From positions 303,592-367,591 of the forward strand of contig CAVVCK010000002.1 in NCBI GenBank assembly GCA_963746775.1: a DNA stretch of 64,000 bases, given 5' to 3'. Of the stretch, positions 23,094-45,426 are shown piece by piece. Source of the DNA: an uncultured bacterium. Its GTDB lineage: Bacteria; Patescibacteriota; JABMPQ01; CAVVCK01. Made by a program: the position numbers and the translations under genes. Within the stretch, counting starts at the first letter, position 1. Each line of letters begins with the position of its first letter. Below the pieces are notes generated by a model. That model ran no database searches, was not told where the DNA came from, and worked only from the letters and a program-made list of their open reading frames with translations.

Positions 23094-23226
23094 TTATTTT
23101 CACCTCCCTTCATATAATTTTACTTTAATTTATACCTTATTCTAACACCCCCCCCTATTTGTCTAGAATTATGTGTGGATAAAAATAGCAGCACCAACCT
23201 CCCAGGTTGGCAATTTAAAAAAAGAC

Positions 23227-23256
23227 CAACCCGGAGGGGTTGGTCCTACAATTTAA
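23227..23256 (-). terminator. rho-independent terminator for the 23271..23960 gene
   Basis: Minus strand reads GACCAACCCCTCCGGGTTGGTC followed by TTTTTTT. A second similar CCAACC...GGTTGG hairpin lies at about 23197-23216. Confidence 0.55.
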
Positions 23257-38902: not shown

Positions 38903-38943
38903 CTTCTCCCCTCAGCTGAAGGGAGATATCTCCCACTTTTTAA
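38903..38943 (+). terminator. recG terminator (GGGAGATATCTCCC hairpin plus T-run)
   Basis: Overlapping palindromes CTCCCCTCAGCTGAAGGGAG and GGGAGATATCTCCC followed by ACTTTTTT. Confidence 0.55.
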
Positions 38944-39028
38944 TAAAAGTGTGGAGACAGAGGAGTGTTAAGCGTGACTAGTAGTAAAAACAAAATCATT
39001 TCAGTCTAACCACCTTCAACACCACCCC

Positions 39029-39073
39029 GCTCCGATGTACATCGGAGCTTCCCTCCTCAATTGAGGAGGGAAG
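39029..39073. repeat. two adjacent GC-rich perfect palindromes (20 bp and 26 bp)
   Basis: GCTCCGATGTACATCGGAGC (39029-39048) and CTTCCCTCCTCAATTGAGGAGGGAAG (39048-39073) followed by GATTTTCTATTTTTT. Between recG and the mpg 3' end. Confidence 0.6.
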
Positions 39074-39079
39074 GATTTT

Positions 39080-39679
39080 CTATTTTTTCGACACAAACTT
39101 ATTTCCTTTAATATAAAATCTCCACAAATAATCTTTGCAGCTACCTGCATAATCAACTCCGATTCTCTTTGCTTTTACAATATTCTTTTTTGAAACTTTT
39201 AAACCCCTATCTTCTATCCATATTTTATTGCCTAATAAATCTTCTCCGTTCAATCTTTTATCAATTTTAAATTCTCTGCATAATTTTCCAGGTCCATTTG
39301 TAGGGGCAGGACATGTCCTGCCCCTACAAATGGATTCAACTGCTCTTATTAATACTGCTGCTGGATATTTTTCTTTTTCAGTCACAATGTTTAGGCAATG
39401 ATATATGCCATAAATCATATAAATATAAACATAGCCTGGTTTGCCAAACATTACTTTATTTCTCTCCGTCATACCTTTTGAAGCATGAGAAGCCTTATCC
39501 TTAAATCCACAGTAGCTTTCCGTCTCTACAATTTTACCAACATATTTCTTACCTCTATATTTCCTAATTAAAAATTTGCCCAGTAAATCTTGAGCAACTT
39601 TTATTGTTTTTTGGTTGTAGAATTTTCTAGATAATTTCATAGTAATAATATTAAAAATTGACATCCTTATGGATGTCAA
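39080..39679 (-). CDS. mpg: DNA-3-methyladenine glycosylase (Mpg/AAG family)
   Basis: LLGKFLIRKYRGKKYVGKIVETESYCG...ASHASKG.TERNKVMFGKPGYVYIYMIYG.YHCLNIV...AAVLIRAVE...NGPGKL. The track start is a TTG at 39679; the ATG at 39662-39664 is the more likely start. Confidence 0.8.
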   Translation of the reverse strand: MTSIRMSIFNIITMKLSRKFYNQKTIKVAQDLLGKFLIRKYRGKKYVGKIVETESYCGFKDKASHASKGMTERNKVMFGKPGYVYIYMIYGIYHCLNIVTEKEKYPAAVLIRAVESICRGRTCPAPTNGPGKLCREFKIDKRLNGEDLLGNKIWIEDRGLKVSKKNIVKAKRIGVDYAGSCKDYLWRFYIKGNKFVSKK

Positions 39680-39688
39680 TTTTTAATA

Positions 39689-41044
39689 TTATTTTATTAA
39701 CGCCCTATCTATCGCCTCCTTCACAGTTCCAACTTTTATAACTGCGCCCTTATTACTTTTTACATCAATATCTGGCACTAAAACAGATTTAAATCCTAAA
39801 TTAAAAGCCTCCCCTATTCTTTTCTCGATTTGAGAAACTGTTCGCACCTCTCCAGTCAAACCTACTTCACCTATAGCAACTATTCCAGGATCGACTATTT
39901 TATTAAAATAAACAGAAGCTAGAGCCAGCGAGCAGGCTAAATCTGCTCCAGGTTCTTTTATTTTCATACCACCAGCCGCATTAATATAAATATCTTGGTT
40001 ATCTAATTTTAAATTAGCCCGCTTAGATAAAACTGCAGCTAATAATTGTAAACGATTTAGATCAAAACCAGAAACAGTTCTCTTGGGATAACCAAAACTA
40101 GTGAATGATGTTAGGGCCTGTATCTCTATTAGAAATGTTCTACTACCTTCTAACAAAGCGGCCACGCATGTACCTGGTACTTCTAATTTTCTCTCTTTTA
40201 AAAATAGTTCGGAAGGATTTTTTATTTCAGAGAACCCATTTGCTTTCATTTCAAATATGCCAATTTCTGTAGTCGGACCAAACCTATTTTTAGTTGCTCG
40301 CAATATTCTAAAATTATGGAATCTATCCCCTTCAAAATACAATACAGTATCTACCAAGTGTTCTAGTGTTTTTGGTCCTGCCACTTCCCCTCCCTTAGTT
40401 ACATGACCAATTAATATTACTGGAATATTACTCTCCTTGGCGCATCTAATCAATCTATTAGCTGATTCACGAACCTGGACAACACTGCCAGCCGCGCTAT
40501 CAAAATCATTAGAATAAACAGTCTGAATAGAATCTAGGATAATTAATCCAGGGTTAATATCATTGATTGTTGCAATAATATTATCAATGTTAGTTTCTGA
40601 TAAAAATTGTAAGCCCAATGACTTAGTACCTAGGCGATCAGCGCGCATTTTTACTTGAGTCGCTGATTCTTCACCTGAAATATATAAAGAATTATTTTTA
40701 GAAATTTCCGATATTTTATCACTTATCTGCAAAGCCAGAGTTGATTTACCTATACCAGGATCACCGCCTAATAATATTACCGCTCCACTAATAATTCCAC
40801 CGCCTATCACTCTGTCAAATTCACCTATTCCCGATTCTGTTTTACTAAATTTTTTTGCTTTAATACTACTTATGTTTTGAGGCTCTACAACCCTTCCTTC
40901 CGTTTTTATTCTTGCATCTTCATTACCAGCCTTAATTTCTTCAATAACACTATTCCATTCTCCACATCTTTCACATTTACCCATCCATCTTAAATATTCC
41001 GCCCCACATTTCTGACAGATATAAATTTTATTTATTTTAGACAT
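39689..41044 (-). CDS. radA: DNA repair protein RadA/Sms
   Basis: N-terminal Zn ribbon CQKCGAEYLRWMGKCERCGEW. RecA-like ATPase with Walker A GGDPGIGKSTLALQ. Lon-protease-like C-terminal domain. Confidence 0.9.
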   Translation of the reverse strand: MSKINKIYICQKCGAEYLRWMGKCERCGEWNSVIEEIKAGNEDARIKTEGRVVEPQNISSIKAKKFSKTESGIGEFDRVIGGGIISGAVILLGGDPGIGKSTLALQISDKISEISKNNSLYISGEESATQVKMRADRLGTKSLGLQFLSETNIDNIIATINDINPGLIILDSIQTVYSNDFDSAAGSVVQVRESANRLIRCAKESNIPVILIGHVTKGGEVAGPKTLEHLVDTVLYFEGDRFHNFRILRATKNRFGPTTEIGIFEMKANGFSEIKNPSELFLKERKLEVPGTCVAALLEGSRTFLIEIQALTSFTSFGYPKRTVSGFDLNRLQLLAAVLSKRANLKLDNQDIYINAAGGMKIKEPGADLACSLALASVYFNKIVDPGIVAIGEVGLTGEVRTVSQIEKRIGEAFNLGFKSVLVPDIDVKSNKGAVIKVGTVKEAIDRALIK

Positions 41045-41873: not shown

Positions 41874-41940
41874 TCGTATATATGTTCGTATATTTGTAAG
41901 TATATACGTACGTATATACTTATTAAATTTTATAAATATA

Positions 41941-41978
41941 AAACGAGGCATATTATATTGCCTCGTTTTATATTTTTA
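41941..41978 (+). terminator. rho-independent terminator
   Basis: AAACGAGGCA tattatat TGCCTCGTTT followed by TATATTTTTATTTT. Confidence 0.6.
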
Positions 41979-45206: not shown

Positions 45207-45282
45207 ATATCAGATAGCAGGCACCAAGTGTCTAATATTTAATATTCATTATTTTAATATTATACCAAAATCCATAACAAAC

Positions 45283-45310
45283 AAAAAGGGTAATTTAATT
45301 ACCCTTTTTG
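45283..45310 (-). terminator. strong rho-independent terminator between the two pilin-fusion genes
   Basis: AAAAAGGGTAAT ttaa ATTACCCTTTTT; on the minus strand it is followed by GTTTGTT. Confidence 0.6.
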
Positions 45311-45426
45311 TTTCAATATTAAACTATCTTATTTGCTATTAAACATCATAATAGCACTCTAATTCATTTTCCCATATTCTATGTGTTTTTTTAAATTTTA
45401 TTAAAATTATTATAAAATTTAATTAT

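What the first reader, a model, noticed from the sequence alone, without database searches (positions are those of the whole stretch)
39294..39333. Perfect 40-bp palindrome embedded in the mpg coding sequence
CCATTTGTAGGGGCAGGACA|TGTCCTGCCCCTACAAATGG is exactly self-complementary. It is in frame and encodes ICRGRTCPAPTNG in the loop preceding the conserved NGPGKL of the glycosylase. The segment length is normal for Mpg proteins, so it is not a simple insertion. A perfect 40-bp palindrome in a CDS is very improbable by chance. It may be a protein-binding or cleavage site (for example for a restriction-like or homing-type enzyme), a recombination hotspot, or a remnant of a palindromic element whose sequence happens to encode a tolerated loop.
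Basis: seen in the sequence. Interest (0 to 1): 0.55.

Follow-up and report, generated by a model that had tools for sequence, protein, structure and literature searches.

The report
REP hairpin element inside mpg
The perfect palindrome inside this DNA-repair gene is a copy of a known kind of small mobile hairpin element (a "double-foot" REP, handled by RAYT transposases) that landed in frame in a tolerant surface loop of the enzyme, so it is a clear example of a known phenomenon, not a new system.

Summary
The palindrome is 42 bp (39293-39334). It makes up exactly 14 codons (SICRGRTCPAPTNG) of mpg in a 31 % GC Patescibacteria genome, and chance cannot explain it.

Its 28-bp core, GTAG-GGGCAGGACATGTCCTGCCC-CTAC (39300-39327), is a "double-foot" GTAG REP. 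Quentin et al. 2018 described this type for subclass 2.4 REP-associated tyrosine transposases (RAYT/TnpA_REP). The free stem positions covary, and RAYT-like genes lie next to copies or contain them.

A sister lineage has a RAYT gene with GTAG hairpins directly beside mpg. Orthologous mpg genes carry a different perfect palindrome at the same site, with three compensated pair changes. Others carry a near-perfect one, decayed ones, or none.

The encoded peptide lies in the lowest-confidence surface loop of the Mpg model.

In-frame REPs inside replication and repair genes were reported by Di Nocera et al. 2013. This is therefore a new member of a known kind.

Three things remain open: what keeps the palindrome perfect, why it was lengthened at the cost of a conserved proline, and whether this loop is a REP hot spot.

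The parts
39293..39334 (.). Perfect 42-bp palindrome TCCATTTGTAGGGGCAGGACATGTCCTGCCCCTACAAATGGA, equal to codons 103-116 (SICRGRTCPAPTNG) of mpg
   Evidence: As a single strand it folds into a 19-bp stem with a 4-nt loop: RNA -38.2 kcal/mol in an 88-nt context (z -6.6), DNA -22.4 kcal/mol (z -10.5).
39300..39327 (.). 28-bp double-foot REP core: GTAG foot, a 10-bp GC-rich arm starting with three G-C pairs on each side of the central CATG, and a CTAC foot. Because it is a palindrome it reads the same on both strands.
   Evidence: REP rule scan. Family members found in genome, metagenome and viral collections. The same 28-mer occurs in the unrelated contig L181. Definition of 'double foot' from PMC6006769.
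39293..39299 (.). Left flank TCCATTT, which extends the palindrome beyond the REP core. It encodes Ser103-Ile104 and the first base of Cys105. Ser103 replaces a near-invariant Pro.
   Evidence: Orthologues have CCT (Pro) here. TCC is the exact complement of Gly116 GGA.
39328..39334 (.). Right flank AAATGGA (as read on the mpg sense strand it lies at 39299-39293). It carries the conserved Asn115-Gly116 codons of the NGPGKL motif.
   Evidence: N-G is also present in the palindrome-free orthologues.
39080..39640 (-). Host gene mpg (3-methyladenine / methylpurine DNA glycosylase), 186 aa. The database copy P0001, at 194 aa, starts 8 codons upstream, which would be 39664.
   Evidence: AlphaFold model with mean pLDDT 91: residues 104-116 form a coil between strand 94-103 and helix 117-123 and fall in the block with the lowest confidence.

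Best explanation
The palindrome is a copy of a repetitive 'extragenic' palindrome (REP) of the double-foot GTAG type that became fixed in frame inside mpg.

Shown here:
- The 28-bp core has the defining anatomy: 5' GTAG, a stem whose base is three G-C pairs, and 3' CTAC.
- It belongs to a very large cross-phylum family of 28-nt palindromes. Their variable stem positions covary, and they are found beside and inside RAYT-like genes.
- A sister lineage carries a bona fide RAYT gene with GTAG hairpins directly next to mpg.

Established knowledge: RAYT/TnpA_REP enzymes are HUH-Y1 single-strand DNA nucleases. They bind the REP hairpin and use the GTAG tetranucleotide at its foot for cleavage (PMC3479197, PMC3333891, PMC6006769).

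Inferred:
- In an ancestor with a REP/RAYT system, a REP copy landed in the DNA that encodes a permissive surface loop of Mpg.
- Only an in-frame, stop-free outcome survived. The reading frame xGT-AGG gives C-R-G-x-x-C-x-x-P-T.
- The arms have since changed only in concert. The cause could be hairpin-templated correction, selection on the hairpin, or exchange of the 28-nt cassette.
- In this genome the palindrome grew by 3 bp on each side, at the cost of Pro103.
- For Mpg itself the element is most likely a tolerated passenger. It remains a strong hairpin in single-stranded DNA and in the mRNA.
For: Anatomy: GTAG + GGG... / ...CCC + CTAC, 28 nt, matches the 'double foot' definition quoted.

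Family:
- The pattern GTAGNGNCANGNCATGNCNTGNCNCTAC was expected about once by chance in 596 Gb.
- At the four pattern positions left free on both arms, 121-125 of 129 copies are Watson-Crick, with several pair types at each position.
- 28 nt is the dominant length of the other double-foot palindromes in those loci, 19 of 24.
- Copies are mostly extragenic: 36 of 118 lie in long ORFs, against 82 % of random positions.

Link to RAYT:
- The gene between radA and mpg in L002-L005 scores 135 bits on NCBIfam NF047646, REP-associated tyrosine transposase, cut-off 80. It is flanked by GTAG+hairpin and hairpin+CTAC.
- RAYT-like ORFs occur in 9 of 120 genome loci, and 7 of them contain the palindrome in frame just after the HUH motif. 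This is the arrangement Quentin et al. describe for subclass 2.4.

Orthologues:
- L001 has a different perfect 38-bp palindrome at the same site, with three compensated pair changes.
- L002-5 and L177 have one mismatch.
- L251 has a perfect 28-mer of another subtype. L254 and L255 have 29-nt versions.
- L007 and L010 have decayed versions. L006 and L009 have none.
- Across 7 mpg copies the core helix is 94 % paired and 6 of 12 pairs changed on both sides. Slid controls give 34-48 % paired.

Tolerance:
- The peptide lies in the lowest-pLDDT coil of the model, in a loop that varies from 8 to 46 residues.
- In-frame copies also sit in real genes elsewhere: a histidine kinase, HsdM, an AAA ATPase, YfhO and a spermidine-synthase-like protein.

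Precedent: intragenic in-frame REPs, many of them in replication and repair genes (PMC3733652).
Against: - Only one copy exists in the 64-kb window, so 'repetitive' is not shown for this genome.
- No RAYT gene is in the window (tblastn). A word-based search with the sister-lineage RAYT found only three proteins, none linked to this genome.
- The element is intragenic, whereas the family is mainly extragenic.
- The RAYT next to mpg in L002 has HUH and Y motifs (EHLH, YIYYNP) that do not fit subclass 2.4 cleanly, and its own flanking REPs are single-foot.
- A 28-nt unit cannot insert in frame on its own, and the insertion junction cannot be reconstructed cleanly against the empty-site orthologues.
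- The persistence of perfect symmetry at about 18 % gene divergence is not explained by passive carriage.
Confidence: 0.85

Rival explanations
1. The hairpin is a cis-acting element selected at this place. It could be an RNA stem-loop in the mpg message that sets mRNA stability or slows translation, or a DNA hairpin or cruciform that binds a factor. On this reading its REP ancestry is incidental. This is compatible with REP origin and differs only on present function.
For: - Pairing is conserved while the sequence changes. Three compensated pairs separate the window from L001. 6 of 12 core pairs changed on both sides across 7 orthologues, with 94 % paired.
- REP-type palindromes sit in the same loop in Mpg proteins only 61-62 % identical.
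- A near-invariant Pro was given up for a longer stem.
- The RNA fold is very stable, -38 kcal/mol, z -6.6.
- Di Nocera et al. doubted that REPs in repair genes are fortuitous.
Against: - The same 28-mers occur in hundreds of unrelated contexts, mostly extragenic.
- Close orthologues do without it (L006, L009) or let it decay (L007, L010).
- Mismatches in sense orientation show no preference for G-U over A-C (L002 G-T; L254 G-T and A-C; L255 A-C).
- Complementarity runs through the centre, where an RNA loop needs none.
- No T-run follows the hairpin on either strand, so it is not an intrinsic terminator.
Confidence: 0.1
2. The palindrome arose on the spot by a replication template switch, in which one arm was copied from the other. 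It only resembles REPs by coincidence.
For: - The right-hand end of the palindrome (ACAAATGGA) is ancestral coding sequence for T-N-G, and the left end is its complement.
- CCT to TCC at codon 103 looks like a templated multi-base change.
- 18 of 222 family copies sit inside longer palindromes, against 0.87 expected.
Against: - The 28-bp core is identical to an element in an unrelated organism (L181) and has the full double-foot anatomy.
- GC is about 61 % in a 31 % GC genome.
- Several mpg lineages carry different family subtypes, all with GTAG/CTAC feet.
- Template switching may explain growth and upkeep of the palindrome but not its origin.
Confidence: 0.03
3. The palindrome is a recognition or cleavage site for a restriction-like, homing-type or site-specific recombination enzyme.
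For: Perfect two-fold symmetry, extending to the centre.
Against: - No endonuclease or recombinase gene is at or near the site. The neighbours are radA and recG.
- The sequence varies by compensated changes, which a sequence-specific enzyme would not readily tolerate.
- The family is tied to RAYT genes instead.
Confidence: 0.02
4. The palindrome is an assembly or sequencing artefact, such as a fold-back chimera.
For: None specific. Perfect palindromes can be created by some library preparations.
Against: It is in frame and codon-aligned. The same site carries palindromes in independent assemblies from ENA, Logan, JGI and NCBI samples.
Confidence: 0.01

Closest known systems
'Double foot' REP sequences associated with TnpA_REP/RAYT subclass 2.4 (Quentin, Siguier, Chandler, Fichant 2018, PMC6006769)
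   Same: 5' GT[AG]G and 3' C[TC]AC at the two ends of a long GC-rich hairpin. The base of the stem is three G-C pairs. [quoted passage not shown] The host range is wide.
   Different: - Here the copy is in a housekeeping repair gene of a Patescibacteria genome.
- It is a single copy in 64 kb, with no RAYT in view.
- The palindrome extends 7 bp beyond each foot.
- The paper calls REPs species-specific, whereas identical 28-mers turned up here across phyla.
Intragenic GTAG/CGTC REPs in replication and repair genes (Di Nocera, De Gregorio, Rocco 2013, PMC3733652)
   Same: Short REPs are located entirely within ORFs, in frame, and encode extra residues. Many hosts are DNA synthesis or repair genes, and in some species these are the only REP-tagged genes. 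REPs lie at about the same site in recB of two Xanthomonas species.
   Different: - Their list names uvrA/B/D, recBCD, polA, dnaE2, ligase and photolyase. mpg and Patescibacteria are not mentioned in the text I read.
- Their GTAG tag is an unpaired motif at one end. Here it is paired with CTAC at the other end.
Rickettsia palindromic elements (RPE), as summarised in PMC3733652
   Same: Palindromic repeats inserted in frame in genes that stay functional, in a small AT-rich genome.
   Different: From my own knowledge, RPE-1 type elements are roughly 100-150 bp and encode tens of residues. They have no GTAG...CTAC feet and no RAYT link is known. The rickettsial short repeats belong to the CGTC class.
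Subterminal hairpins of IS200/IS605 elements
   Same: Hairpins of 20-25 nt with an adjacent tetranucleotide, recognised as single-stranded DNA by a Y1 HUH transposase.
   Different: No transposase gene lies between two such ends here. The element is a lone 28-nt palindrome.

Membership tests
Double-foot GTAG REP (RAYT/TnpA_REP subclass 2.4 type) | 5' GT[AG]G tetranucleotide at the foot of the hairpin | tested here: met
   GTAG at 39300-39303 on the + strand and at 39327-39324 on the - strand, directly abutting the stem.
Double-foot GTAG REP (RAYT/TnpA_REP subclass 2.4 type) | Reverse complement C[TC]AC at the 3' end ('double foot') | tested here: met
   CTAC at 39324-39327. Definition quoted.
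Double-foot GTAG REP (RAYT/TnpA_REP subclass 2.4 type) | Long GC-rich stem whose base is three consecutive G-C pairs | tested here: met
   GGGGCAGGAC / GTCCTGCCCC; the first three pairs after the foot are G-C. L001 has A-T, G-C, G-C at these positions.
Double-foot GTAG REP (RAYT/TnpA_REP subclass 2.4 type) | Member of a repeated family, with many copies in the host genome | tested here: inconclusive
   One copy in the 64-kb window, and the rest of the roughly 547-kb contig (longest contig listed for P0001) could not be fetched. Across other genomes the family is abundant.
Double-foot GTAG REP (RAYT/TnpA_REP subclass 2.4 type) | Stem positions covary among family members | tested here: met
   121-125 of 129 copies are Watson-Crick at each of four unconstrained pairs, with several pair types. 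Among mpg copies the core is 94 % paired, with 6 of 12 pairs changed on both sides.
Double-foot GTAG REP (RAYT/TnpA_REP subclass 2.4 type) | Cognate RAYT gene in the genome, typically flanked by REPs (a REPtron) | tested here: inconclusive
   None in the window. Present immediately beside mpg in sister lineage L002-L005, with GTAG hairpins on both sides. RAYT-like genes are next to or around family copies in 9 of 120 loci.
Double-foot GTAG REP (RAYT/TnpA_REP subclass 2.4 type) | Bound and cleaved as single-stranded DNA by the RAYT | not testable with these tools
   Needs biochemistry.
REP in the literal sense (extragenic) | Located between genes | tested here: not met
   Lies wholly inside the mpg CDS. 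Intragenic exceptions are documented.
Intrinsic transcription terminator | GC-rich hairpin followed by a run of T on the transcribed strand | tested here: not met
   The hairpin is followed by CCTGGAAAATTATG on the mpg strand and by TTCAACTGCTCTTATT on the + strand.
Rickettsia palindromic element / MITE | Element of about 70-300 bp with terminal inverted repeats, and for MITEs a direct target duplication | tested here: not met
   The element is 28-42 bp and one continuous palindrome. The flanks are inverted, not direct.

The most novel reading that the evidence does not exclude
The hairpin is not a passive passenger. On this reading, REP-type palindromes in the Mpg loop are actively kept perfect across Patescibacteria whose Mpg proteins are only about 61 % identical. 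One possible reason is that the hairpin is a working cis-element of a DNA-repair gene. Another is that a RAYT cutting at the two feet can swap the 28-nt cassette for another family member without changing length or reading frame. Cassette exchange of that kind inside a coding sequence has not been described.
Probability: 0.15. Interest if true: 0.6.

Novelty: new member of a known kind. Interest (0 to 1): 0.33.

Why it matters
It explains an odd-looking sequence in ordinary terms: a REP/RAYT-type mobile hairpin that a DNA glycosylase tolerates in a surface loop.

It adds a case from the candidate phyla radiation, in mpg, to the published observation that intragenic REPs often sit in replication and repair genes. 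It also offers something the earlier surveys did not have: a set of orthologues in which the same in-frame hairpin is perfect, near-perfect, decayed or absent. That set could be used to ask whether such hairpins are selected, self-correcting or replaced.

For annotation, peptides such as CRGxxCxxPT, VGARHAVPL and VETRHALSL inside otherwise conserved proteins are translated REPs. They are not functional motifs.

Tried and rejected
- Half-site search in the window: no further exact copy, and near-matches are at chance level.
- Rfam at gathering thresholds over the whole window: only three tRNAs, nothing at or near mpg.
- tblastn of the sister-lineage RAYT against the window: nothing.
- Homologue search with that RAYT: only three proteins, none from this genome. 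The search is word-based, so this is a weak negative.
- Look-up of the window's own Mpg (P0001) to reach the source contig: not on record.
- Literal search of the 22-28-mers in 8 million papers: no hit.
- Neighbour-joining tree of mpg without the loop, to decide between one insertion and several: unresolved, with bootstrap 3-52 %.
- G-T versus A-C mismatch orientation, to tell RNA-level from DNA-level constraint: too few cases and no trend. In the extragenic family the palindrome has no orientation, so the test is void there.
- The variable positions of the family coincide with the positions that differ between the window and L001. This is not evidence, because I designed the scan pattern from those differences. 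Only the covariation at those positions is informative.
- The other GC-rich palindromes next to mpg (39029-39073) and the 50-bp hairpin at 39644-39693 have no GTAG foot, so I do not count them as REPs.
- Terminator, MITE/RPE, restriction or homing site and assembly artefact were considered and rejected (see the membership tests and rival explanations).

Full report
**1. The observation**

The perfect palindrome extends one base further on each side, to 39293-39334. That makes 42 bp with 21-bp arms, at 52 % GC in a window of 31.4 % GC.

It lies in mpg, on the minus strand at 39080-39640 (Pfam Pur_DNA_glyco, E 3.8e-59; human AAG structures match at E 3e-31). It begins and ends on codon boundaries. 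The codons are TCC ATT TGT AGG GGC AGG ACA TGT CCT GCC CCT ACA AAT GGA, which encode S103 I C R G R T C P A P T N G116.

In 100 first-order Markov simulations of the window, the longest perfect palindrome arm was 7-12 bp. Chance is therefore excluded. The half-site has no second exact copy in the window.

**2. What the orthologues show**

The genome is a Patescibacteria/Parcubacteria genome, judging from the source names of its homologues. I fetched the DNA of related mpg genes.

- Same site, palindrome present:
  - L001 is 82 % identical in DNA across the gene. It carries CATTTGTAGAGGCAAGGCATGCCTTGCCTCTACAAATG, a different perfect 38-bp palindrome. All six differences from the window fall into three complementary pairs.
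  - L002-L005 and L177 come from five samples. They carry the window's sequence with one mismatch, GCC to GTC.
- Palindrome absent: L006 and L009 have a plain ten-residue loop, PVSNKNLKTN.
- Palindrome decayed:
  - L007 has a 28-nt version, GTAAAGACGCAAAATTTTACGTCTCTAA.
  - L010 keeps only AGGCAG...CTGCCT.
- More distant Mpg proteins, 61-62 % identical, carry further versions in the same loop:
  - L251 has GTAGAGACGCGATTAATCGCGTCTCTAC, a perfect 28-mer. I predicted this from its peptide RRDAINRVST before fetching the DNA.
  - L254 has a 29-nt version with 12 of 14 pairs, and L255 one with 13 of 14.

On an alignment of seven mpg copies, the 12-pair core helix is 94 % paired. Six of its pairs changed on both sides. 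Sliding the partner columns drops pairing to 34-48 %. What is conserved is the pairing, not the sequence and not the peptide.

**3. What it is**

The inner 28 bp (39300-39327) read GTAG-GGGCAGGACATGTCCTGCCC-CTAC.

I scanned one genome per species (596 Gb) with the degenerate pattern GTAGNGNCANGNCATGNCNTGNCNCTAC. About one chance match was expected. The loci came from Bacteroidota, Chloroflexota, Acidobacteriota, Cyanobacteria, Planctomycetota, Proteobacteria, Deinococcales, Saccharimonadales and others.

One 28-mer, GTAGGGGCAAGGCATGCCTTGCCCCTAC, was seen 98 times in contigs of 29-71 % GC. The window's exact 28-mer appeared in an unrelated 57 % GC contig, L181.

Further properties of the family:

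- At the four positions left free on both arms of the pattern, 121-125 of 129 copies are Watson-Crick, with several pair types at each position.
- Other double-foot palindromes in the same loci are also mostly 28 nt long, 19 of 24.
- Copies are mainly between genes. 36 of 118 lie in stop-to-stop ORFs of at least 150 aa, against 82 % of random positions.

**4. The link to a transposase**

In L002-L005 a 169-aa gene sits between radA and mpg. It scores 135 bits on NCBIfam NF047646, REP-associated tyrosine transposase, where the cut-off is 80. It is flanked by GTAG+hairpin and hairpin+CTAC. One of these stems begins GGCAAG, as the L001 mpg palindrome does.

A profile built locally from that protein found RAYT-like ORFs in 9 of the 120 genome loci. 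In seven of them the palindrome lies inside the ORF, in frame, just after the HUH motif (MPNHVHGII). There it is read as VGARHAVPL or VETRHALSL in one frame and CRGTACRAPT in the other. These ORFs match NF047646 at E 1e-11 to 1e-16, which is below the family cut-off.

**5. Comparison with what is published**

Two papers cover this ground.

- Di Nocera et al. 2013 (PMC3733652) sorted REPs into GTAG- and CGTC-tagged superfamilies. [quoted passage not shown]
- Quentin et al. 2018 (PMC6006769) described TnpA_REP subclass 2.4, with motifs NH[IFV]H, WQ and YIxNNP, in Cyanobacteria, Bacteroidetes and various phyla. It has long REPs whose stem base is three G-C pairs, and 'double foot' REPs with 5' GT[AG]G and 3' C[TC]AC. 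Its 'unique feature' is REPs inserted in frame inside the tnpA_REP gene between HuH and Y.

The element in mpg fits that description feature by feature. It fails only the literal 'extragenic' criterion. Copy number and a cognate RAYT could not be checked for this genome.

**6. Why the protein tolerates it**

An AlphaFold model has mean pLDDT 91 and pTM 0.89. It places residues 104-116 in a coil between strand 94-103 and helix 117-123. This is the lowest-confidence block of the chain, with a mean of 72 for residues 101-110. The loop ranges from 8 to 46 residues among 120 homologues.

In-frame copies of the same family also sit in genuine genes of other phyla: the HATPase domain of a histidine kinase, HsdM, an AAA ATPase, YfhO and a spermidine-synthase-like protein.

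**7. How it most likely works**

Shown here: the anatomy, the family membership, the covariation, the association with RAYT genes, and the loop location.

Established elsewhere: RAYTs are HUH-Y1 nucleases. They bind the REP hairpin in single-stranded DNA and use the GTAG at its foot for cleavage (background passages of PMC6006769; PMC3479197 and PMC3333891 are listed).

Inferred:

- A REP from a REP/RAYT system, possibly the one still next to mpg in L002, landed in the loop-coding DNA.
- Only an in-frame, stop-free result in a permissive loop survived.
- The copy is now a passenger for Mpg. It can still form a 19-bp hairpin in single-stranded DNA (-22 kcal/mol) and in the mRNA (-38 kcal/mol).

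I put 0.85 on REP origin and about 0.6 on 'no present function for mpg'.

**8. What remains unexplained**

1. The arms change only together, although the gene has diverged by about 18 %. Selection on the hairpin, hairpin-templated correction and replacement of the 28-nt cassette would all give this result.
2. Complementarity runs through the very centre (CATG, TTAA, AAAATTTT). A hairpin loop would not require this.
3. In this genome the near-invariant Pro103 codon CCT has become TCC. That is the exact complement of Gly116 GGA, and it lengthens the palindrome from 36 to 42 bp. It looks like a templated change. In the family at large, 18 of 222 copies sit inside a longer palindrome, against 0.87 expected. 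Several of these look like terminator hairpins split at the apex.
4. A 28-nt unit is not a multiple of three, and the junction cannot be derived cleanly from the empty-site alleles.
5. Whether the loop holds one ancient REP or is a recurrent target is open. The mpg tree is unresolved. The element abuts the N-G codons in the window's clade but lies three codons before them in L251, L254 and L255.

**9. Verdict**

The restriction or homing idea is not supported. This is a new member of a known kind: a double-foot GTAG REP, in frame, in a DNA-repair gene, here in a Patescibacteria genome. Interest is modest. Its value lies mainly in the orthologue series, which could be used to test how such hairpins are kept perfect inside coding sequence.

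Noticed in passing
window 39644-39693: A 50-bp AT-rich hairpin (23-bp perfect arms, 4-nt loop) sits exactly between the radA stop and the mpg ATG. L001 has a related GACATCC...GGATGTC hairpin at that place. L002-L005 instead have a RAYT gene with GTAG hairpins in the same gap. The hairpin has no GTAG foot, and its relation to the REP/RAYT system is unknown.
   Followed up: partly
window 38905-38950 and 39029-39073: GC-rich palindromes cluster in the gap between the convergent recG and mpg genes. Two abutting perfect ones (20 bp GCTCCGATGTACATCGGAGC and 26 bp CTTCCCTCCTCAATTGAGGAGGGAAG) are followed by a T-run on the + strand, about 130 nt beyond the recG stop and its own hairpins. This could be a bidirectional terminator block or the end of a small unannotated transcript. 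Rfam found nothing there.
   Followed up: partly
window 41897-41922, 41934-41975, 45279-45313: Further long inverted repeats lie in intergenic gaps: a perfect 26-bp AT-rich palindrome TAAGTATATACGTACGTATATACTTA, a hairpin with 17-bp arms right after it, and another hairpin with 17-bp arms and a 1-nt loop.
   Followed up: no
window 23220-23249 (- strand): GTAG followed directly by a 9-bp GC-rich stem, a 4-nt loop and TTTT, in an intergenic gap. It is either a single-foot REP-like element or a plain terminator that happens to follow GTAG.
   Followed up: no
L011-L250 (genome and metagenome scans): Identical 28-mers such as GTAGGGGCAAGGCATGCCTTGCCCCTAC and GTAGAGACAAGGCATGCCTTGTCTCTAC occur in contigs of 29-71 % GC from many phyla. 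The REP literature I read calls REP sequences species-specific. This suggests either a very constrained recognition hairpin or frequent horizontal spread of this REP/RAYT type.
   Followed up: partly
L209:5911, L239:8349, L056:1549, L115:4980, L028:6847, L163:1232: About 8 % of family copies (18 of 222, against 0.87 expected) lie at the centre of a longer palindrome. Several flanks look like A-run/stem ... stem/T-run terminators split at the apex, as if the element inserts into hairpin loops or makes palindromes grow.
   Followed up: partly
L058:5542-5725; L109:52: L058 has three REP copies in a 78-bp tandem repeat, inside an ORF next to a RAYT-like gene. L109 has a nested palindrome that extends 51 bp on each side of the core. 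L069 and L099 have partial tandem copies.
   Followed up: no
L256-L284 (IMG/VR): The same pattern occurs in 29 stretches of viral or proviral contigs. These could be vehicles for transfer, or host DNA in predicted proviruses.
   Followed up: no
Mpg homologues P0049, P0051, P0061, P0030, P0057, P0082, P0088 (loop between IRAxE and GPGK): Many other Patescibacterial Mpg loops read like translated palindromic repeats (PLLKGA..., GTVPAGTVP, CRQGFHALPA, VEIRHCLVPT, VETQQCCVST). The loop seems to collect such elements.
   Followed up: partly
window, whole: GC skew is negative in almost every 2-kb bin (cumulative -5.7 over 64 kb), and most genes are on the minus strand. The window therefore probably lies within one replichore, with no origin or terminus in it.
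   Followed up: no
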